Shown here one piece after another: positions 47,496 through 60,532 of a stretch of DNA of 64,000 nt. This DNA is from the human T2T-CHM13v2.0 reference genome, Homo sapiens, in the NCBI RefSeq assembly GCF_009914755.1, contig NC_060925.1. One strand, written 5' to 3'. The notes beneath the pieces are model-generated. The model had not been told where the DNA came from and made no database searches. It was given only the letters and a program-made list of their open reading frames with translations. The translations under genes were made by a program, and so were the position numbers. Position 1 is the first letter of the stretch. Each line of letters opens with the position of its first letter.

Positions 47496-49254
47496 CACAT
47501 TCGGGTGAATTCATGAGGTTTTTAGCACAGTATTTAATATTCAACACGTGGGAGTAGATGAGGGTACAGAGGAATATGCTCTGATTTGCAGATGTCACCT
47601 GTGCCACATAATGCTCTCCTCTTGTCTTGAATGGGGAAACATGGAAAGTTCCTAGGACAGGGACTGACTAGCACATACCAGGTATGCAACAAACATTAGT
47701 TCCTTTTATCCCCCATGAACACAGAAGGAGCAGCTTATTAGCAAGTCACAACTGATAAGATTATTTATAAATTCATTGCCCTTTAAAAATTTAGAGGACC
47801 GAACAAATGACCTGGACCCACCCTCACACTTTATAGGCAAGGAAACCAAGACCCAGAGTGCCATAGTAATGTACTCAGCTTGGAAAAGCAGAGACTGGAA
47901 CCCAAGTCCCTGAATCTTTATCTGGGACCTTTTTACCATTTGCATCATCCACTAGGTCTGCAGGAAGATAATTCAGTCATTCAACACTTACTTATGGCTA
48001 GCCCTGAAAGATACACTGTGGGGGATCACAGATATTTATAATCTAATGGGATTGACAAGTGTTAAGTAACAGCAGCATTTAAACCAGCATTTCATTGGTA
48101 GGACAATTAGTGTGAGGCCATCAGTGAAATGCATAAAACACACAGGAAAAGAAATGGCCCCATTATTTAAGTAATTTAATGATTAACAAACATTTTATTG
48201 AGCTCCTAATTGCATGAGGTATTTTGCTAGGCTTGAGAGATACATGGTCTCTACCCTTAAGGATCTTAAGTTTAGATGGGATGATATATATGGAAATAAA
48301 TAATTGCAACACGTTATTTTTTTTTAAATATCTGCAAGAAAGGTATTTGCAAGGACTGTGTAAGCTCAGATGACTTTAGGAGCACTAAAGAGATAGCTAA
48401 GACTGTTTCAGGAAGCCAAGTTCAGGGAAATGACACTGGAACTGGGTTCTCAAGTATAATTAAGAGTCCACTGGTGGGTAATGGAAGAAGCCGCTTCTCG
48501 GGAGGAGAAGAAAAAGGCTTTGCAAAGGCCTACCAGACAAAAAGCATGGCTTGTTACTTAGGGAACTGGAACATGGTTGTGTAGAGTGAGTTTGGGCTGT
48601 AAGCTATATTATGTCAGGCAGAGCCAGGATAGTCAGGAAAGGCCAGATCTCAGGGGCCATGACCACTCGGTCTCGAAGCTTAGATTTTTTTGGTGTAGGA
48701 AATGAGAACTTTGCAATTTTTTTTCTGTATTCCTATGGGAATGTTCTATAATATTCCTGTGGGAATATTTCTGTAATGAATGTAGATGACTACACTCATC
48801 AGAGGAAGCATGTTATTTTAAAAGAAAGCAAAATCTGCCTGGTGTCCGTATGGAGGGTAGAGGACATTCAATATCAGGAATAGAAACAGGAAGCCAAATT
48901 AGGAGAATTGCAAATTGTTGAGAAAGTGGACCAAAATTGGAGATGCAGAGAAGAGAAAACATCTGAGAGGATGTGAAAAGGAGAGGGGAGTAAGGGACTG
49001 AGTGGATGTGGGTAGCAGGAGAGGAAGTGGTCCAGTGAGACTCCCAGAGGGTGCTGACATGAGATGCAAGTCAAATGTCAAGCAGCTGCCTCTTGTGACT
49101 TCTGTATTCTCAGCTAGACTGAAAATGCCCTTAGGACAGAGACTTCTGTGTTCTGGAGGTCTTTGATCATGTCTCATACAGAGCCCTGCTCCTCTCTTGC
49201 TCTCTGTCTGAGGGGCAGAGCGAGGCTGAGGAGCACTGGAATATGAGTTATGGT

Positions 49255-49436
49255 TAGAGTTGTCAGATAAAAGACAGGACACCCAATTAAATTTGAATTT
49301 CTGATAAAAATGAATAATTTTTAACGTAAGTATGTTCCATGCAATATTTGAGATATACTAAAAATTTTATTGTTTATATGAACTTCAATTTTAACTGGGA
49401 ATCTTTTATTTTTATTTGGTAAATCTGGCAACCCTG
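49255..49436. mobile_element. MER53 palindromic hAT MITE
   Basis: TIRs AGAGTTGTCAGAT...ATCTGGCAACCCT with self-complementary arms around CCATGCAATATTTG. Confidence 0.85.
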
Positions 49437-49444
49437 GTTCTAGG

Positions 49445-49445
<1 letters not shown>

Positions 49446-49478
<33 letters not shown>
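49446..49478. repeat. (GT)n microsatellite
   Basis: Pure dinucleotide run. Confidence 0.96.
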
Positions 49479-49480
<2 letters not shown>

Positions 49481-49654
49481 AGAGTAGACAGCAGGAACAA
49501 AGAGTTGTGTGCAAGTAATGGGATATACAAAAGATTTAAGTGACCTTAAGAAGGCTTCATTTTCACAGAGGAAGTGGAGAAGGCACAAGAAACCAAAAAG
49601 TGAGAGTCACACTAAGGGAGGCAATTGAGCAGAGTGGCTTAGAGCCTTTCTCTG

Positions 49655-49927
49655 CTGGGTGTCTAGCTACGTGGGAGGCTGAGGTGTGAGGATCACTTAA
49701 GGCCAGGAGTTTAAGACCAGCCTAGACAACATAGTGACACTCCCTCTCTAAAAAAATAAAAAATAAATTAGCCAGGCATATGGTGGTGCATATCTGTAGT
49801 CCCAGCTACTTAGGAGGCTGAGGCAGGACAGTCACTTGAGGCCAGGAGTTGGAGGCTGCAGTAAACTGTGATCATACCACTGCACTCTAGCCTAGGCAAC
49901 AGAGTGAGACTCACCTCCCTTCAAAAA
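49655..49927 (+). mobile_element. AluJ with degraded 5' end
   Basis: Diverged dimer, TSD-like GAGCCTTTCT/GAGCCCTTCT. Confidence 0.85.
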
Positions 49928-50549
49928 TGAGAGCCCTTCTTCCGATCACTAGCTCCCCTGGATGAAACGTCCCGATAAGCAACAATCTAATAGTTAGCTT
50001 CCTACATAACTCACTTACGGACAGAAAATGCGCTGATCTGGGGCCAAGCCCTTTCTGACCCACATGAACAAGAAATAGAGGACACTATTTAGCGCACAGG
50101 TTTTGTAGTCAGACAGTCTGAATTCAAATTCTAGCTTCATAGCCTTGGGTAAATCATTTACCCTTTTAATCTGTTTTCTTTTTTCTAAATAAAGAAAATC
50201 GATTTAAAGGGTATTGTAATTATTTGTTAAAATTTAAGGATAATTATTTATTTTCATACAATAAAAATTATTTTGCAAAAAAATTTTGCATAATAATGAT
50301 GGTATCTTATCTTCAGAGACTACTTTAATGTTTTCACATCGACTTTTTTTTCTTGTCATCATATCTTCACAATAGCTCTGTAACATAGACAGTATGGGAC
50401 AAGTTTGATTATTCCCATGATACAGATATTTAAAAGAAGGAGAAGGTTAAAGAGCTTAGCCAAAGTCACAGCAGGGGTAATTGGTTAGTACCTGAACCAG
50501 GACTCCTCAATTGATACAATATTAAAACTAGAAAGTAAACAGGATCATC

Positions 50550-50718
50550 CAGCGGTTCTCAACTCAAGGGTTTTGGAAACATGAGGACCATTTTGATTAT
50601 CGCAATGCCTGGGGGATCTGCTGGCATTTAATGTCTGAAGCTCCAAATGCTAAAGATCCTCCAATGTGCATGACAGTCCTGACCCCAGATTCTAATAGCT
50701 CCCAGTTGAAAAACACAG
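50550..50718 (+). mobile_element. MER20-like hAT element
   Basis: CAGCGGTTCTCAAC...CTGCTGGCATTT...GTTGAAAAACACAG. Confidence 0.65.
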
Positions 50719-50899
50719 GTATTCCTGCCCCCTCATTTTACAACTGAAGAAACTGAAGACAGAGAGGTGAGTGACAGGTGGCTTTCACACAGTAGATTAT
50801 AAAAAAACTTTCTTGAGTGAGAGATATTAAAAAAGAGAAATGCAGTCCATTAAGGGAACTTTCTGCTTTTGCTCCTCTACATGGTGAATGTAGTACCTA

Positions 50900-51486
50900 T
50901 GTCAGAGGCATTGGAACCAGACCTTGAATAGGAGCAGCATAAAATGAGGCTGAGACCTGCTGGGCTACATCCCCAGGTGGTTGGGCATTCTTAGTCACAG
51001 GGTAAGGTAGGAGGTTGGCACAAGATACAGGTCACAAAGACCCCAGTAATAAAACAGAATGCAGTAAAGAAGCCAGCCCAAACCCACCAAATCCAAGATG
51101 GCAAAAGTGACCTCTGATCCTTCTCACTGCACATTATATGCCAATAATAATGCATTAGCATGCAAAAAAGACATTCCTTAGAGTGCCAAGACAGTTTATA
51201 AAGGCCATGGCAATATCCAGAAGCTGCACTATATGGTCTAAAAGGAAGAGAAAACTTTAGTTCCAGGAATTCCCCACCCCTTTCCCGGAAAATTCATGAA
51301 TAATCCATCCCTAATTTAGCATATAGCCGTTCTTGGGGCTGCTCTGCCTATGGAGTAGCCATTCTTTTGTTTCTTCTCTAATAAACTTGCTTTCACTTTA
51401 CTCTGTAGACTCTCCCAGAATTCTTTCTTGTGTGAGATCCAAGAACCCTCTCTTGGGGTCTGGATGGGGACCCCTTTCCAGTAACA
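50900..51486 (+). mobile_element. MER41 (B-like) ERV1 solo LTR
   Basis: TGTCAGAGGCATTGGAACCAG start, GAGATCCAAGAACCCTCTCTTGGGGTCTGGAT...CCCCTTTCCAGTAACA end, TSD CCTA/CCTG, tandem GAS motifs. Confidence 0.92.
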
Positions 51487-52489
51487 CCTGTACATGTTGG
51501 TGTGGCTGCGGAATGGGAAAAGGCCACTGAGTTCCAGTCCCAGGTGCACGGCTGACCATGTGATCAAGAGCCCTTCCCTTGTTATCTTTGAAGACTCAGG
51601 TTCTCAGTGTGAGACATGGGGTCTCCTATTCAATGACCTGTAGTGTTTCTCATGCAGATGTGACCAGGACATAGAAAGAGGCCCCCTGAATGGCTCCAAA
51701 GAAAGGCACTCATCAAAAGCAGAGCCAGACCTCGCCGACCTATGATGCTCAGGAGCCTCATGGTAAATGGCAGCATGAGGTCAGGCCTTCCTGGCAGAGT
51801 GGGAGCCGTGCAGCCGTAGCGCCCAGTGCCCAAGCTGCACTATTGGCTCAGGGCAAGCAGCTGAAAGCTAGAATGGCCTTAGTCCCAAATCAACATTTCA
51901 TAGATCAGGAAAATAATTAAAATGCAACTATCTCCTTTCCATGATTTTACTATATGAAATGCAGTGCTGAGCACTTGCTACATATGCCGCATTTAATTCC
52001 CACACCAATTCTGCGAACTAGAGACTTGTATTCCAATTTAGACATGGGGAAATTGAAAGTGAAGCTATAAGTAAATGTACTAAATCCAAAAGGTGAACGT
52101 GGCAGAGGTGGGATTTAAACCAAGGTCCATCGGATTCCACAGATACTATACTGCTATCTGGAAGACACTAAGGACTGAAAAGGGACTTACCCAAGAGGGC
52201 CCTTCTGCCTAGAAGGACTGGCACCTAAGTCCCCCGTCGTGTTTCAACTACTTGGTCATCCATGGCGATTCAAGATGGGGCAGTGTGGGTTGAAACCCCC
52301 CACCCCACCTTGTGTTGTGGGGAGGTCACCCAAACGTCCTTTGTAGCTTTCAATCCTCCCAAAGTAGCTGCAAAGAGGACGTGATGTGAATATTAAAAGC
52401 CCGAGGCTGGAGGACTTGCCTCCCCAACTCCAGTGCGGAGCCACAGAACTTCAAAGCGAAAGGAAGCACAAGCAGTAGGGGGAGGAGGT

Positions 52490-53150
52490 GTAAATTTCCC
52501 CCGCGGTCCCTTGGAACTGTGAACATTTGCAGATTCCCCAAGCCCTCCCGCTAGCTCCCTGCCAGGTGTCCGAGGCCCGACCGCGCCCCGCCCCCACCGC
52601 GCCCCCCTCCCCGCACCCCGCCCCTCCTGCTCCCGGCTTTCATGTGGATCAAGGCTGGAGGATGACAAGCTCCTGACTGATAGATACATGGAGACTTCGC
52701 TGGTGATTTATTGGCTTTCTGCACCTGACGAGAACCACTAGGCCTATCTGAGGAGGGAAATATATGGGCTTTCCTGACTCCAAGTGGCAGCCCCGGGGCG
52801 AGCATGTGATGTCAAGCTGGGCAGAGGAAAGCGGAGCTGTGCACCGGCCTGTGTACTGTAAGCCGGCCCGGGTCGTAAAAGTGTCAGCACGCGATATATT
52901 TCTTGCAGGGGATCCTCTCTGGCTCTTGCCAGCGCCTCTCCCCCGTGGCTGGCAGCCGCCCTAGCCGGGCCTGCAAGCAGCGGATGCCCCAGGTCGCTAT
53001 CCCTCCGCCCTGCCCCGGAGCGCCGGGCCCTCACGTTCTCGCTCCAGCCTGGGGTCTCTCACGTGGCATCTGGCCCTGGGGACGGTGCAGCGGAGGAGTT
53101 AATTGCTGTCACTCCTGACTTCAGCGAAAGAGGTCGATCGTGGGGTGAGA
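52490..53150. promoter_or_regulatory. CpG island / promoter-like element (non-repeat)
   Basis: Dense CpG and high GC; clustered Sp/KLF boxes CCCCGCCCC at 52585-52625; HOX cofactor sites. Confidence 0.75.
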
Positions 53151-53402
53151 TATTGAAGCTGGGGATTGACCTGTGGACCAAGAGTTTGATGGGGCAACTC
53201 AATAGCAAACTCAATGTTCCCAGAGATGAACCAAGTAATCAGTTATTTATTCAGAAAATTAAGTGCCATTCGTGTGCCAGGCACTGCGCCCCCTACCCGC
53301 AGGCCTCACCTTGGCCACCGGCCTGAGTTGTTCTCATTTCTCCTCCCTCTACCTCCAGGCTTCTTCCTCGGGGTTAGCAGGGGCCTGGAGTGGATGTTTA
53401 GT
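53097..53402 (+). repeat. Inverted duplication, copy A
   Basis: Aligns by eye at roughly 70% to the reverse complement of 56936-57263. Confidence 0.9.
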
Positions 53403-56148
53403 CTACCGGTCAGACTCCAGGTCTTATATCTTGAAACTGTAAGTCCCTGAATTCACAGACAATTCAGAGTAAGGATGGAGGCAAAGAAGAGGACCTTGGG
53501 TTTACTGTTCACGAGGTAGGTGGGGAAGGGCTTGAAAAACAGAGATATAAACTGCATTTGTACCCCATGTCAATGGGAGTTTTAAGATTTTGACCAATTT
53601 GATGAATTGGAGCTCATCTGTCACTAATTGTTCTGTCTTCAATTAAAGTGCAAGCTTATTCTTGGGCCCGCAATATTTGAAATATGTGCTTGTTACTCTG
53701 TCCTAAAACTCCATTCTGTCATCATCTTTGGAAATGGGCTAACTCTACATTTTGTATGCAAAAATTTTGTAAATATTCCAAATTGGGATATTGATAGGCT
53801 TTTTAAATTAGAAGATACATTTAATTAAATTAGGATTAATTAAATTATGAGCCAAATTAGGAGATAAATTTAATTTAAAGCATCGATATGCTCTTGTCTC
53901 TCATCTTCCCTCTTTTTTCATCTCCTGACCTGGTCTTGGAAAAAACATTTGCTGATTAAATGTCCTGCTAGATGACCTCATAAAGGTGTTCAGTGATGAA
54001 GAGGAGTGGCTGAAGAGGTAAGGAGAACACTCAAAGCAACAACAGCAAAACGTACAGTATGAAGGGGGTAGTCATAAGGTCAGTCCATAACCCTGCCAGC
54101 ATCATCCAGATAGAAGTGGATCTGCTATCCCTCCCCACACCTGACTTCACTACCTGCACACCCACAAGCAGGGCAGCACTAGCCCCCAGTGCTCTTCTGT
54201 GCATATTAGAGTCTTCCCTGGAGGGCTCAGTACCTTGCTGGGACTCATGGCATGGGGAGCAGAACCCAGGCTGAATTTCAGTCCCTACAAGGTTTTAAGT
54301 ACAGGGATCAGCCTGCACAACCGAATGGGAGGCCCGGCCCTCATCTGCCCTTCTGTAACTTGTCTTTCCCTGCCAGGCCTCCCTCGGAGCTCATTGTTGA
54401 AATCTGGCATCCAGAGCTATGGATTCCCCGCTCTGCCATTTACAAACTGTATGATTAGGGCTCATCAGTTCATCTCTCTGAGTTACTTTCTTTTCTGAAA
54501 TGGAGGTAGGGCTACTTCTCTCACATGGCTTTATGAGGGTGAAGTGGTTTCCAATGAGCACTCATCTGGATATTCTAGGCCCATCCACTCACATAGCTAA
54601 TGACACTCCTTCTTTACAAGATGAAGGATTAGGAGATGATTTTAAATCTTTTAGCTGGAAGGGCCTTTAAGAGATACCTGTGTCTGTCTTGGGCCTTAGA
54701 GTGAGTAAAGGGACAGCAGGTGGTCAGGCCCTGCCAACAGCAGGATATTTTCTGCAGGTGCCCAACAGCAGCCCTGGAGTTGCCTCAGATCCTCCCACTG
54801 GAGGCTTCATTGCTGTATCTGCCATTCCATCCCTGGCAGGGATAGGCCAAGGTCTTAGATACCCTGGCACCCAACACTCCATACAGGCTTGTCTCTGAGC
54901 AGACTCTCGGTGAAGGCTATTGTGCTAGTCTGAGCAGAACGGGAGGTGCAGGGATTGCAGCTGTTCCTTCACTGCAGTGTCAGTTTGGAAATTTTCCCAG
55001 AAGACTTAGCTGGTGCCTCTTCTTTGATATTCATGAGTGTGTGAACACAACGACCCTCCTCATCTTTGTCGAACCCATTCCTCTTGGACCACACCAAGTA
55101 TAGTCCAAAAAGAAGGTGATTTAGGAGAAGTGTGAAGGCACCCTCAGTTCTGGCAAATTCTTGGGTATCCTGCAATTCTCACTCAGCAGCATCCCAACAA
55201 AACCAGAGAAAAGACCCGGGGCCGGGAGATGAGCCAGGAAAATAGCTTCATGTTTGACTTGAGGGTACAGGCATCTGCAGAAGCCAGCCTGGAAGACTCT
55301 TCATGAGCCCAGCTGCAAGGGGCATCCTAGAGCCAGTTCATGAGCCCAACTTTACAGAGGCATCAAGCTTCCCCTCCCCTAGAAAGGAAGGCTATAGAGC
55401 AAGCAGAATGTTTAAGACACAGGCTTTCAAGTGAGGCTGACTTGGATTAGCGGAACTAAGGATGACGTGGCCCTGTGCAAGGAACTTAATATCTCTGGGC
55501 TTCATTCTTTATCTGTTTACCTACCCCCAGGTCCTGAAAGTACCACAGAAATATCTGTTTTTATTCAGAGGATAATAAAACAGAATATTTACATATTGCT
55601 TCATATTCCCCCAGGATATTTTTAGATTACCACAATATCCTAAGAGTTTGTTTATGCATGCTTTATAGACCTGTATCTGTGGTTAAAAAAGATACATAAA
55701 TACTTTAAAATTTTATAATACAAGAGTATAAGTTACCTGATTTTTTATGTGTTCCGCAGATGGCTGTCTAGAGTCAACACAAACCTACCCCAAAGTTTGA
55801 CCTTTGCCTTAAGTCAGTAACTGAGGAGGGCCACGGTCCTGAGTTCAGTCCAGACCCCAGGAAGATTCAGAGCCTGCAGTTGTCCTCTGGTTTCTAAAGT
55901 ATGTTATTGGGCTAAAGATTTCAAGACATTTATCCTTCTTTGCTTTCTATCGCAGCCATTAAATGTTTTAGATATTTTCTGCCAGAAGGCAGGAATCATG
56001 AAGATAACAAATATTAAAGACAAAACCAAATAACTTTTAATGAGAAGGTCAGTCCGTGGTTTGAGTCTTTGGAAAGAAATCAAGAACTCTGACTATACTT
56101 GCTATTTGACCATTGATTCTCTAGTGGAAATGGGCAAATCTTTTATAC

Positions 56149-56361
56149 CAGGGCAAATTTTTCAGTAACGGGCCAGACAGCAAATATTTTAGGAATTGTG
56201 GGCCATACAGTCTCTCTCCCAACTACTTAACTCTTCAGCATAGCATAAAAGCAGCCATAAACAATACTACAACAAGTATGGCTGCATTCCAATAAAACTT
56301 TATTTACAAAAATAGGCAGCACGCCAGATTTGGCCCACAAGCTATAGCTTTCTGACCCCTG
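56149..56361 (+). mobile_element. MER58A hAT-Charlie element
   Basis: GGGCCAGACAGCAAATATTTTAGG...TTCCAATAAAACTTTATTTACAAAAA...TGACCCCTG. Confidence 0.88.
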
Positions 56362-56364
56362 CTT

Positions 56365-56835
56365 TGCCAAACTCAATAACAAACAGAGAGGGAGACTCTT
56401 TTAAAAAAATTATATTCATTTGGGAGTAGCATTGCAATGGGAATACGTGTGCCATAGCAAATTATGAGCGTATTCAAAGAGATTGGGGCAAGGGGAAGTT
56501 TATAAAGGCAAAACGAAGAGGATTACAATTGTTCAAATCAATTATCCTTGGCTACAAGGGTGGCACAAGTCCAAGCTTGAACAGGCAGTTGCTAGACAGA
56601 CATCCTTACAGAAGTATTTTCTGTGTAAGGTTGCAGTGGTCTTTTTGCAAAGCTATAGTAAATCACAGGGGTCAGTACAACCGTAGTGCAATGGATAAGC
56701 CTTGCCCTCGGAAAATCTTCGTGATCATGGTATCTCCCCTGCCAAATAAATATTGTGACAGTTCTTATCAGGCATTCATGTGTAAGAACTCTCCCTTGAT
56801 GGCCTTCCCTGGCTCCATTTGCCAGGGTTTTAACA
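56365..56835 (-). mobile_element. ERV1 LTR (MER67/MER31-like) interrupted by a U1 copy
   Basis: Reverse strand starts TGTTAAAACCCTGGCAAAATGGAGCCAGGGAAGGCCATC and ends TTATTGAGTTTGGCA. Confidence 0.6.
56660..56753 (-). pseudogene. U1 snRNA retropseudogene, 3'-truncated (about nt 1-97)
   Basis: Reverse strand ATATTTATTTGGCAGGGGAGATACCATGATCACGAAG...GGCTTATCCATTGCAC...CTGACCCCTGTGATTT matches the U1 5' half. Confidence 0.93.
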
Positions 56836-56935
56836 TAAATTACTCCATTTTGATTCGGACAACTTTCATAACTGCTTACCATCTGTGCCTCTGTGTATAA
56901 AAGTGGACATACTAAAATTTTTCCTTAGGGCTACA

Positions 56936-57263
56936 ACTAAACATCCAGCCTAGCCCTTAGCCAGCACCAAGGAAGAGGCCTGGGGGATAGAGGAACAAAT
57001 AATGAGACCAAGTCAGGCCATCCCCCATGGGGTGAGGCCTGCAGGTAGGTGGGCCCAGTGTGGTGTACCTCTAGCACAGTGCCTGGCACAAAATTGCAGT
57101 TTATTTTCTGAATAAATAACTCTTGGATCAATTGGTTGCTCTCTGGGAATGTGACTTTGCTGTTGAGTTGTGCAGAGTACTCTCTGTCTCCAAGCCAATC
57201 CCAGCTTCAGTATCTCACCCCACAATCCACATTTCCCAGTGTCTGGAGTAACAACAATGACCT
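56936..57263 (-). repeat. Inverted duplication, copy B
   Basis: Shares GTGGGGTGAGATA(T/C)TGAAGCT, AGTTATTTATTCAGAAAAT, GCAGGCCTCACC and GGATGTTTAGT with copy A. Confidence 0.9.
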
Positions 57264-58809
57264 GGGGCTGGGCTCTCAGCAAGTCAAACCCTGCCTCAAC
57301 AAACCCAAACTGCTTTGGGGACCAATGTGATGCAAATGTGTACTGAATCCCCTGAATTCCCCCTGGTGATCCTGTCCTGTAACAGGCCCTCCCCATCCCC
57401 TCAGGCCAGTGCATTCAGGAAATCAGTGACCACAGGATGGTTTCTCAGCTGGAGGGAAGGTCAGCCTGCATCTGAGCATCTTAGAACATGTTATTTTGTT
57501 CCCACTGGTCAATCCCGTCCAAGCTGTACACATAGTGCCTAAGCCACGTTTGTTACTGCAGGCCTGTCTTCGGAAAGGTCACTGAACAGAAGGAGGAGGC
57601 ACCTTACTCTCTTTTGTTACGTCTTCACCACTTTTGTCTAAAGGGAAGTTTAGCTGGAGGGCTGAGCACGCAGACAGGTTTCTGACTGTGCCACATAGAT
57701 CCCACATTGCTTCTCTGCCATGATTTATCATCTGTGACTTGACATGTTCTGCACACACGGGCATGTTGTACACATTGAGACATGCTTCCTGCATTCAAAG
57801 ATTTTCCCATATTGAGGGCATTTTCCTGGTGCAGAATTGAAGACTGAATTGAGGCATTCAGATTGACCTCAACATCTACGGGTCTGGAGGAGGTTTGGGA
57901 CGTTTCCTTTTCTTCTCTTCAGGGGCCCACTCCTGTTGTAAAGAGCAGCAGCATTTATAATGAGGGCCCAGGAAATGCGGGGGAGAGGGGAGAGCCTGCT
58001 ATCTCTGCAGTGGGTGACTGTTGTTTCCCTGATCAACAATGTATCATATCCCAGCCTAAGCCTGCCTTTCTCCTTCCCCCTCCACATGGGGAGGGGCCGT
58101 GGGCTCAGAGCTCACCTGGAATGCCTCTGGTTGCTGAAGGGCTGGATGGAGACTCTGAGACAACCTGATGGATCATCTCATAAACAGAGCCTGCAGGAAG
58201 GAAAAGAAAATTATGCCAGCATAATGCACTTACGAGAAATAGATACGTGCGGTGCAGGGAGAAATGCTTTGATATTAAAATTTTTGTAACTTAAAAAGGC
58301 ATGAAAAATGATACCGACCACTAACTAATCAACATTCCTTTGCGAATACAGCTTCAGTTCCTAACCAAAAACACATCCCTGCTATTGTCTTGTCTGGATC
58401 CAGATGCAAACATGATTAATTAAGTTTCTGGTGAGGAGTGGGACGAGGGCAGTGGGAACTGATGGCTTGCTGAGGATCCTTTTCATATACAGGCCTGGGG
58501 AGAATCCCTTAGTCTGGGTGCCTATTTCCCTCCACATGTCAGGGCTTACCCCGTGCACTGACAGCCACGGGGGCAGTGAGTAGGCTGCAGCCAGACCCAT
58601 GGAGTGAGGCAGTGAGAGGCTGAAAGGAGAGGCTCTACAGACAGTACAGGGAGGCTCTTGGTATCTCCCATTGCCACTGCACAGCACAGCACGGCAGAGT
58701 AGCAAACGCATATGCCATGTCTTGTTGGGAGACCTGGGCCCTGCTCCAGACTGCTACCAAGTAGTTTGGGACCTTGGATGAGCTGCCTCAATTTCTCCAT
58801 TTGTGAAAT

Positions 58810-60532
<1,723 letters not shown>

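What the first reader, a model, noticed from the sequence alone, without database searches (positions are those of the whole stretch)
50900..52500. MER41B-type LTR with both STAT GAS motifs intact, 1 kb from a CpG island
TTCCAGGAA (51261-51269) and TTCCCGGAA (51282-51290) are perfect TTCN3GAA sites 21 bp apart. MER41B copies with this tandem are established STAT1-bound, interferon-gamma-inducible enhancers (e.g. at AIM2). The island edge also has an IRF-like AAAGCGAAA (52453) and a kB-like AAATTTCCCC (52492). Inference: a primate-specific interferon input onto whatever the island drives.
Basis: partly seen in the sequence, partly recalled or inferred. Interest (0 to 1): 0.7.

Follow-up and report, generated by a model that had tools for sequence, protein, structure and literature searches.

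The report
Ordinary MER41B solo LTR, STAT sites intact
This is a roughly 50-60-million-year-old leftover end piece (solo LTR) of the well-known MER41 retrovirus family that still carries the family's inherited pair of interferon-response (STAT1) sites, so it is an ordinary member of a known class and nothing here shows that it regulates its neighbours.

Summary
Both TTCN3GAA sites, the IRF-like and the "kB-like" strings sit at the stated coordinates. A GAS pair at 21 bp is expected 0.02 times per window.

The pair lies in a 587-bp solo LTR, window 50900-51486, + strand. It has TG..CA ends, a 4-bp target duplication matching at 3 of 4 bases, unique flanks, and thousands of genomic relatives.

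It carries the 43-bp block that print says MER41B has and MER41A lacks. It aligns over nearly its full length with a copy near IFI6 that print calls MER41B. Divergence gives about 50-60 Myr.

The GAS pair is inherited, not special. 11 of 29 and 5 of 14 sampled relatives keep it. The genome holds 1343 such pairs (control 573), and 134 in the strict form.

Three corrections:
- The AIM2 enhancer is a different LTR, ERV-Saru.
- The "kB-like" string fails the kB consensus.
- The IRF-like string is commonplace.

No STAT1 binding or interferon response at this copy could be tested. The only annotation is hESC enhancer tiles. Low interest.

The parts
50900..51486 (+). Solo LTR of the MER41 family, B (GAS-bearing) type, 587 bp, TG...CA ends
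   Evidence: Matches relatives over query 1-587. There is no second copy in the window and both flanks are unique in the reference. It holds the 43-bp GAS block and the 42-bp upstream block. CpG o/e is 0.07, with only 2 CpG left.
50896..50899 (.). Left target-site duplication, CCTA
   Evidence: The family habit is a 4-bp duplication: 14 of 17 full-length copies match at 3 or 4 of 4 bases.
51487..51490 (.). Right target-site duplication, CCTG (3 of 4 bases match the left one)
51261..51269 (.). GAS site 1, TTCCAGGAA (palindromic core)
51282..51290 (.). GAS site 2, TTCCCGGAA. With the preceding T it equals the printed STAT1 motif TTTCCCGGAA, and it holds one of the LTR's two remaining CpGs.
   Evidence: The motif is printed in PMC2897888 Table 1.
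51266..51275 (-). Perfect match to the kB consensus (GGGGAATTCC), overlapping GAS 1 and the spacer. It is rare among copies.
   Evidence: Only 1 of 29 and 1 of 20 other copies have a kB-consensus match beside a GAS.
51304..51329 (+). Match to the printed MER41B-derived motif M2, 20 of 26 bases
   Evidence: It is the only place in the window at 20 of 26 or better; the next best is 18.
51380..51385 (+). AATAAA, candidate LTR polyadenylation signal
   Evidence: for the sequence. The role is inferred.
51391..51399 (-). IRF-like AAAGTGAAA inside the LTR
51201..52063 (.). RefSeq functional element 'OCT4-NANOG-H3K27ac hESC enhancer'. It overlaps the LTR's last 286 bp, including the GAS pair.
   Evidence: annotation table.
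52453..52461 (+). IRF-like AAAGCGAAA. One half is off the GAAANNGAAA core.
52492..52501 (+). It does not meet GGGRNWYYCC.
52490..53160 (.). Modest CpG island (GC 0.62, o/e 0.65, 42 CpG), unique in the reference
53480..53515 (+). LINC01780 first exon. The TSS is 2.0 kb after the LTR's end, on the same strand as the LTR.
   Evidence: RefSeq table supplied with the finding.

Best explanation
SHOWN. Window 50900-51486 is a solo LTR left by one integration of a MER41-family, gammaretrovirus-like endogenous retrovirus. The interior was later lost, presumably by LTR-LTR recombination. It is of the B type: it keeps the 43-bp block that carries the family's two GAS sites 21 bp apart. It is about 12-14% diverged from the family root. 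That fits an insertion in the simian ancestor about 50-60 Myr ago (print bracket 43-69 Myr).

SHOWN. The GAS pair is inherited from the family. It did not arise at this locus. It survives in about a third of sampled relatives.

INFERRED. The copy is sequence-competent to dock IFN-gamma-activated STAT1 dimers, possibly as a tetramer across the 21-bp pair. Most likely it is a latent or weakly and conditionally occupied site with no demonstrated effect on the CpG island or on LINC01780. It is one ordinary member of a class of several hundred such copies.
For: Identity
- End-to-end matches to relatives: 4125 first-look candidates, 40 scored.
- A 22-base stretch of the LTR occurs 2314 times at up to 2 mismatches; control 0.
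- 4-bp duplication CCTA/CCTG. 14 of 17 full-length relatives show 3-4 of 4 bases matching.
- Unique flanks and no second copy in the window.

Type
- I took a position-ordered chr1 sample of 29 loci. 9 fragments under 430 bp were dropped, leaving 20.
- 6 of the 20 lack one contiguous 43-bp block that holds both GAS. This is the deletion that print gives as the MER41A/MER41B difference (PMC9963469 passages). One of the 6 has a larger deletion, so its class is less sure.
- 14 of the 20, and this copy, hold the block.
- Print says the MER41B consensus has two GAS 21 bp apart and prints the motifs TTTCCCGGAA and M2 (PMC2897888). Here they match exactly and at 20 of 26 bases.
- In 70 kb round IFI6 the only two relatives lie 18 and 23 kb from the gene. 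Print calls the IFI6-linked elements MER41B (PMC6292174 passages). The first aligns with this LTR over positions 24-587 at 76%.

Age
- K2P of this copy to the 29 top relatives is 0.217; among those relatives it is 0.187.
- In the chr1 sample it is 0.237-0.254 to GAS-block copies, against 0.21-0.22 among them.
- Print gives 45-60 Myr, and entry in the simian ancestor.

Ordinariness
- The pair is kept in 11 of 29 and 5 of 14 relatives.
- Genome-wide there are 1343 lax pairs (control 573) and 134 strict pairs (control 5).

Against a strong role
- LTR CpG o/e of 0.07 suggests long germline methylation (the reading is inferred).
- HeLa occupancy is below 18% even for the best GAS sites.
- Of 175 IFN-gamma-induced genes, only 3 contacted a MER41 (PMC6292174).
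Against: - No Dfam/RepeatMasker library was on hand. 'MER41B' therefore rests on print criteria and on one print-anchored copy, and my placing of that copy is an inference from 'about 20 kb' in the text.
- This copy is in the better part of the class. Both sites fit the strict TTCCNGGAA form, as at only 134 genomic places, and site 2 equals the top printed STAT1 motif. Binding is quite possible.
- It lies within 1-2 kb of a CpG island and a lncRNA start, on the same strand. Its 3' part falls inside a RefSeq hESC enhancer tile, so the neighbourhood is not inert chromatin.
Chuong 2016 itself is not held.
- The star-tree dating is rough. The substitution rate of 2.2e-9 per site per year is recalled, not from a call.
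Confidence: 0.6

Rival explanations
1. The LTR is a STAT1-bound, IFN-gamma-inducible enhancer that gives the CpG island or LINC01780 a primate-specific interferon input.
For: - Two perfect GAS at the 21-bp spacing that print finds among induced tandems (PMC2897888).
- One of only 134 strict pairs in the genome.
- MER41B as a class shows an almost 20-fold gain in STAT1 tags after IFN-gamma.
- It lies 1.0 kb from the island, on the same strand as LINC01780.
Against: - No binding, acetylation or expression data for this copy.
- HeLa had 292 STAT1 peaks in 7197 MER41 copies, against an excess of about 770 tandem pairs in the genome. At most about 38% of such pairs can be bound there.
- Most bound copies have no induced partner gene.
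- No interferon link in the LINC01780 passages I read, in 2 of 6 papers.
- 0 papers hold both MER41 and HAO2.
Confidence: 0.15
2. The LTR's 3' part belongs to a constitutive or developmental regulatory region (pluripotent or trophoblast cells) that works through other factors, independently of interferon.
For: - RefSeq lists three abutting hESC enhancer tiles, 51201-53786. The first, 'OCT4-NANOG-H3K27ac', covers the LTR's last 286 bp.
- Print: many MER41 copies are constitutive enhancers in trophoblast stem cells, bound by GATA2/3 and MSX2 and unresponsive to IFN-gamma (PMC10069462 passages).
Against: - The tiles look like one 2.6-kb region centred on the CpG island and cut into three equal parts. 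The LTR may only sit at its edge.
- No motif analysis for those factors was done here.
- The source assay behind the RefSeq names is recalled, not checked.
Confidence: 0.2
3. Naming rival. The copy would be filed by a repeat library under another MER41 subfamily (C, D, E or G), or as a mosaic, rather than MER41B.
For: - No library was available.
- Print says MER41E also has GAS 21 bp apart.
- Among GAS-block copies two 3' sequence variants exist. Only 6 columns separate them, and this copy sides 4 to 2.
Against: - Its relatives number in the thousands. MER41E covers only 135 kb against 1069 kb for MER41B.
- It shows the full pattern of blocks of the long, about 630-bp class.
- It aligns with an IFI6-linked copy that print names MER41B.
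Confidence: 0.12

Closest known systems
MER41B LTRs bound by STAT1 after IFN-gamma (for example the two copies 18 and 23 kb from IFI6)
   Same: - Full-length alignable sequence (76% over positions 24-587).
- Same 43-bp block with two GAS 21 bp apart.
- Same TG..CA ends and 4-bp duplication habit.
- Solo LTR state.
   Different: - No binding or enhancer data exist here for this copy.
- It has two private deletions (about 9 and about 31 bp), so it is 587 bp against about 630 bp.
- It has a private kB-consensus match in the GAS spacer.
- No interferon-stimulated gene is known beside it.
ERV-Saru LTR, the AIM2 interferon-inducible enhancer (Frith 2025, PMC11905727)
   Same: It carries a GAS pair at the same 21-bp spacing (L031 positions 740 and 761). 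Its sequence shares 28-90 bp round the pair with 9 of the 29 saved relatives of the window's LTR. It also has a 4-bp duplication and is simian in age.
   Different: The rest of the LTR does not align with this one. That family is tiny, with 30 first-look candidates and about 14 copies in print, against thousands here.
MER41A LTRs
   Same: They are close relatives and share the 22-base stretch and most of the sequence.
   Different: MER41A-type copies lack the 43-bp block with both GAS, and in my sample also a 42-bp upstream block. They are younger (K2P within the group 0.147). This copy has both blocks.
MER41-derived constitutive placental enhancers (for example beside FBN2; PMC10069462)
   Same: Same LTR family. 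They offer a possible non-interferon use of a MER41 copy near active chromatin.
   Different: They are defined by H3K27ac and by GATA2/3 and MSX2 binding in trophoblast stem cells. Neither was testable here.

Membership tests
MER41 LTR family (ERV1, gammaretrovirus-like) | Interspersed multi-copy repeat alignable end to end, with TG..CA termini | tested here: met
   matches over query 1-587, 4125 first-look candidates; ends read TGTCAG...GTAACA in 17 full-length copies; 2314 matches of a 22-base stretch, control 0.
MER41 LTR family (ERV1, gammaretrovirus-like) | 4-bp target-site duplication | tested here: met
   CCTA/CCTG, 3 of 4 bases. In relatives: 7 copies at 4 of 4, 7 at 3 of 4, 2 at 2 of 4 and 1 at 1 of 4, out of 17. 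Print gives 4 bp for the MER41E ERV and related group-I ERVs.
MER41 LTR family (ERV1, gammaretrovirus-like) | Restricted to simian primates (insertion shared by Old and New World monkeys, absent from strepsirrhines) | not testable with these tools
   No other primate genome was on hand. Divergence agrees with print's 45-60 Myr.
MER41B subfamily | Holds the 43-bp block with the STAT1 motif that MER41A lacks (print: PMC9963469) | tested here: met
   6 of 20 sampled chr1 copies lack exactly this block. This copy and 14 others hold it.
MER41B subfamily | Two GAS in tandem, 21 bp centre to centre; flanking sequence resembles printed motifs M1 and M2 (PMC2897888) | tested here: met
   spacing 21; M1 exact; M2 20 of 26, unique in the window.
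MER41B subfamily | Aligns full length with a copy named MER41B in print | tested here: met
   76% over positions 24-587 with the copy at chr1:27531435-27532025. Which of the two IFI6-linked copies print means is my inference.
MER41B subfamily | Best match to the MER41B library consensus (Dfam/Repbase) over A, C, D, E and G | not testable with these tools
MER41A subfamily | Absence of the 43-bp GAS block | tested here: not met
   the block is present.
ERV-Saru LTR (AIM2 enhancer type) | Full-length similarity to the LTR upstream of AIM2 | tested here: not met
   no BLAST hit at E<=1e-5; at E<=10 the only GAS-region match is a 9-base one; that family's copies are different loci.
STAT1-bound IFN-gamma-inducible enhancer | High-quality GAS motif or motifs | tested here: met
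STAT1-bound IFN-gamma-inducible enhancer | STAT1 occupancy and H3K27ac gain after IFN-gamma; induced target transcript | not testable with these tools
Supplements that list bound copies are closed.
CpG island | At least 200 bp, GC at least 0.5, CpG o/e at least 0.6 | tested here: met
   52490-53160, GC 0.62, o/e 0.65. With the looser cut, 52330-53320.
   it is not among the 7 matches in the window. A true match lies at 51266-51275 inside the LTR.
   it reads CAAAGCGAAA. The looser AAANNGAAA occurs 49 times in the window.

The most novel reading that the evidence does not exclude
This copy may be more than a bystander. It is one of only about 130 places in the genome with two strict TTCCNGGAA sites 21 bp apart. 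It has also gained, by a change that almost no relative shares, a perfect kB consensus overlapping the first GAS. It could therefore be a composite STAT1/NF-kB element that lets IFN-gamma and inflammatory signals act together on the unannotated CpG island and LINC01780, in the TBX15-WARS2-HAO2 interval.
Probability: 0.05. Interest if true: 0.45.

Novelty: already known. Interest (0 to 1): 0.15.

Why it matters
It matters little beyond good bookkeeping. MER41B LTRs with paired GAS sites are a textbook case of retroviral remnants carrying interferon-responsive sites, and this is one more copy.

The check is still useful in three ways:
- It shows the motif pair is inherited and common. About a third of relatives keep it and the genome holds hundreds, so intact motifs alone do not single out a functional copy.
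The AIM2 enhancer is an ERV-Saru LTR, not a MER41B.
- It removes the supposed kB and IRF support at the island edge.

If public interferon ChIP and RNA data did show induced binding here, the copy would join the list of candidate primate-specific interferon inputs. Its target would be a lncRNA of unknown function.

Tried and rejected
1. Using the AIM2 upstream LTR as the MER41B reference. Rejected: it does not align with this LTR. Its family is tiny, and print renames it ERV-Saru.

2. Looking for MER41A-type copies among the closest relatives of the LTR's first 341 bases. None of the 29 saved loci showed the 43-bp absence, so that sample could not test the A/B split. A position-ordered sample anchored on a conserved 22-base stretch did.

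3. Splitting the GAS-block copies into two 3' variants to refine the name. Only 6 columns discriminate, and this copy sides 4 to 2. My first regex classes failed, and those were loose. I dropped this as a naming criterion.

4. Internal proviral sequence or a partner LTR. None was found: the flanks are unique and there is no second copy in the window.

5. Rfam over 48000-58000 gave nothing.

6. Literature for this locus. 6 papers mention LINC01780; I read passages in 2 and found no interferon link. 'MER41' plus 'HAO2' gave 0 papers. Chuong 2016 and Buttler & Chuong 2022 are not held. I know their content only through the passages of PMC9963469, PMC10069462 and PMC6292174. Supplements are closed; they may list STAT1-bound MER41 copies, including or excluding this one.

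7. Retention of the CpG inside GAS 2 as a sign of selection. Rejected as unsupported. My estimate (an inference, not a call) is that a given CpG survives by chance in roughly a fifth to a third of copies of this age, and 1 of the 14 other GAS-block copies in the chr1 sample keeps it (read off the block printed).

8. Reading a TATA box at 51197. In the copies shown nearly all relatives read otherwise at that place, so no promoter anatomy is claimed.
Full report
OBSERVATION

A single TTCN3GAA is unremarkable in this window: 30 found against 24.0 +/- 5.0 expected, and 14 of 100 shuffles reach 30. Two of them exactly 21 bp apart are expected only 0.02 times per window, and 2 of 100 shuffles have one. 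The pair is real and not chance. The question is where it comes from.

WHAT IT SITS IN

Window 50900-51486 (587 bp) begins TG and ends CA.

Searched against the whole reference, it matches other places end to end (query 1-587). There were 4125 first-look candidates, of which the tool scored 40. The 29 saved copies other than itself are 74-78% identical and mostly about 630 bp long. A conserved 22-base stretch of it occurs 2314 times in the genome at up to 2 mismatches, with a control of 0.

Of the 29 saved copies, 17 match the full length. Among those, the four bases on either side match at 4 of 4 in 7 copies, 3 of 4 in 7, 2 of 4 in 2 and 1 of 4 in 1. The family therefore makes 4-bp target duplications. 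Here they read CCTA and CCTG.

The 964 bases after the element and the 800 before it are unique in the reference at this sensitivity. The window holds no second copy. It is a solo LTR and no inner genes are present, so none were read.

The RefSeq soft-mask table does not list it. That table is evidently not a RepeatMasker track.

FAMILY

1. Schmid and Bucher 2010 (PMC2897888; passages, sections 7 and 18) state that the MER41B consensus has two high-scoring GAS 21 bp centre to centre. MER41E also has 21, and MER41A has none at that spacing. They print two motifs from STAT1-bound sites, TTTCCCGGAA and a 26-mer 'resembling MER41B'. Here the first is exact at 51281-51290. The second matches 20 of 26 at 51304-51329, which is the only place in the window at that level.

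2. A review of Chuong 2016 (PMC9963469, passages) gives the A/B difference as a 43-bp deletion that removes the STAT1 motif from MER41A.
   - I took the first 29 chr1 places, in positional order, that hold the 22-base stretch exactly. 9 are fragments under 430 bp and were dropped.
   - Of the other 20, 6 lack one contiguous 43-bp block that holds both GAS. One of the 6 has a larger deletion.
   - 14 hold the block. The window's copy holds it, and also a 42-bp upstream block that the A-type copies lack.

3. Raviram 2018 (PMC6292174, passages) names MER41B elements linked to IFI6, one 'about 20 kb' away.
   - In 70 kb round IFI6 the only two relatives of this LTR lie 18 and 23 kb from the gene's 5' end. 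Both have GAS pairs.
   - The first aligns with this LTR over positions 24-587 at 76%.

So it is a MER41 LTR of the B type. The residual doubt is only what label a library would print.

THE AIM2 EXAMPLE

The LTR just upstream of AIM2 has a GAS pair at the same 21-bp spacing (L031 positions 740 and 761). It gives no BLAST match to this LTR at E<=1e-5. It shares only 28-90 bp round the pair with 9 of the 29 relatives.

Its own family is tiny: 30 first-look candidates and about a dozen long matches. Frith 2025 (PMC11905727, passages) describes exactly this. The AIM2 enhancer is a full-length ERV-Saru LTR (636 bp, about 14 copies), formerly taken for a MER41.

AGE

- Among the 29 top relatives, mean K2P is 0.187. 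This copy to them is 0.217. With present CpG sites left out, the figures are 0.174 and 0.210.
- In the position-ordered sample, GAS-block copies differ by 0.21-0.22 among themselves and this copy differs from them by 0.237-0.254. A-type copies differ by 0.147 among themselves and so are younger.
- Under a star tree this puts the average B-type copy about 9-11% from the root and this copy about 12-14%.
- At a recalled neutral rate of 2.2e-9 per site per year, that is roughly 43-50 and 56-63 Myr. The estimate is rough, because it also counts diversity among source elements.
- Print gives 45-60 Myr, with entry after the tarsier split (about 69 Myr) and before the simian ancestor (at least 43 Myr).
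- The copy has two private deletions of about 9 and about 31 bp, which nearly all relatives lack. They account for most of its shortfall from about 630 bp.
- CpG o/e is 0.07. Two CpGs are left, one of them inside GAS 2.

IS THE MOTIF PAIR SPECIAL?

No, though it is a good specimen.

- The lax pair survives in 11 of 29 top relatives and in 5 of 14 GAS-block copies of the unbiased sample.
- Genome-wide there are 1343 lax pairs against 573 for the backwards control, an excess of about 770.
- There are 134 strict pairs (TTCCNGGAA twice) against a control of 5. This copy is one of the 134.

SURROUNDINGS

- The CpG island is 52490-53160 (GC 0.62, o/e 0.65, 42 CpG). It is unique in the genome, lies 1.0 kb after the LTR and ends 320 bp before the LINC01780 start at 53480. 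The LTR has the same orientation as that gene.
- RefSeq lists three abutting hESC enhancer tiles, 51201-53786. The first (OCT4-NANOG-H3K27ac) covers the LTR's last 286 bp. A short 'active region' lies at 53062-53141.
One of those 7, GGGGAATTCC, lies at 51266-51275 inside the LTR and overlaps GAS 1. Only 1 of 29 and 1 of 20 other copies have such a match beside a GAS.
- The 'IRF-like' string fits only the loose AAANNGAAA, which occurs 49 times in the window. An equally good one lies inside the LTR at 51391-51399.

MECHANISM AND LIKELIHOOD

The following is established knowledge, not tested here. IFN-gamma activates STAT1 dimers that bind TTCN3GAA, and tandem sites about 18-21 bp apart are favoured among induced sites.

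This copy is competent by sequence. Whether it is used cannot be shown here.

- In HeLa, fewer than 18% of maximal-score GAS were occupied.
- 292 STAT1 peaks fell in 7197 MER41 copies. Against about 770 excess pairs, that caps occupancy near 38%.
- Of 175 induced genes, only 3 contacted a MER41.
- LINC01780 appears in print as a liver lncRNA that falls in hepatitis C progression and as a face-shape GWAS locus.

My estimates:
- About 0.6 that this is a latent or weakly, conditionally bound relic without measurable effect.
- About 0.2 for a non-interferon regulatory role tied to the hESC-annotated region.

VERDICT

This is a real, correctly recognised, ordinary MER41B-type solo LTR of simian-ancestor age. 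The functional inference is untested and rests partly on a misassigned example and on two motifs that do not hold up. It is already known in kind, and interest is low.

Noticed in passing
window 51266-51275 (- strand): A perfect kB consensus (GGGGAATTCC) overlaps GAS 1 and the spacer of the pair. It comes from a base that almost no relative shares: 1 of 29 and 1 of 20 other copies have a kB match there. Matches to this consensus are not enriched in the window (7 found, 10.2 expected).
   Followed up: partly
L031 (chr1:158213600-158215800), GAS pair at L031 740 and 761: The AIM2 upstream LTR is a separate small family, ERV-Saru in print. It shares only the GAS-pair module, at the same 21-bp spacing, with MER41B copies. 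A review (PMC9963469) still calls it MER41B.
   Followed up: yes
chr1 sample L074-L103: A-type copies lack the printed 43-bp block and, in this sample, also a 42-bp upstream block. One copy (L090) has the GAS block but lacks the upstream one, so it is an intermediate form. A-type copies are less diverged (K2P 0.147) than B-type copies (0.21-0.22).
   Followed up: partly
window 53102-53402 (+) and 56936-57258 (-): These two stretches are 70% identical in inverted orientation, 3.5 kb apart, just after the CpG island. From recall the sequence looks like an old MIR-type repeat. This was not tested.
   Followed up: no
window 56625-56753: RefSeq's U1 pseudogene RNU1-75P does not reach the Rfam gathering score. 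The scan of 48000-58000 returned no family.
   Followed up: no
window 59801-60400: A second CpG-rich stretch (GC 0.56-0.57, o/e 0.79 in 500-bp windows) lies inside the first intron of LINC01780.
   Followed up: no
window 50900-51486: The LTR is absent from the RefSeq 'masked_repeat' rows. Only 49662-49915 is masked between 48000 and 57000, so that mask misses old LTRs.
   Followed up: no
window 51140-51170: The 42-bp upstream block of B-type copies is AT-rich and holds octamer-like strings (ATGCAAAA here). It lies just before the RefSeq OCT4-NANOG tile, which starts at 51201. I read this off, and the octamer likeness is recalled.
   Followed up: no
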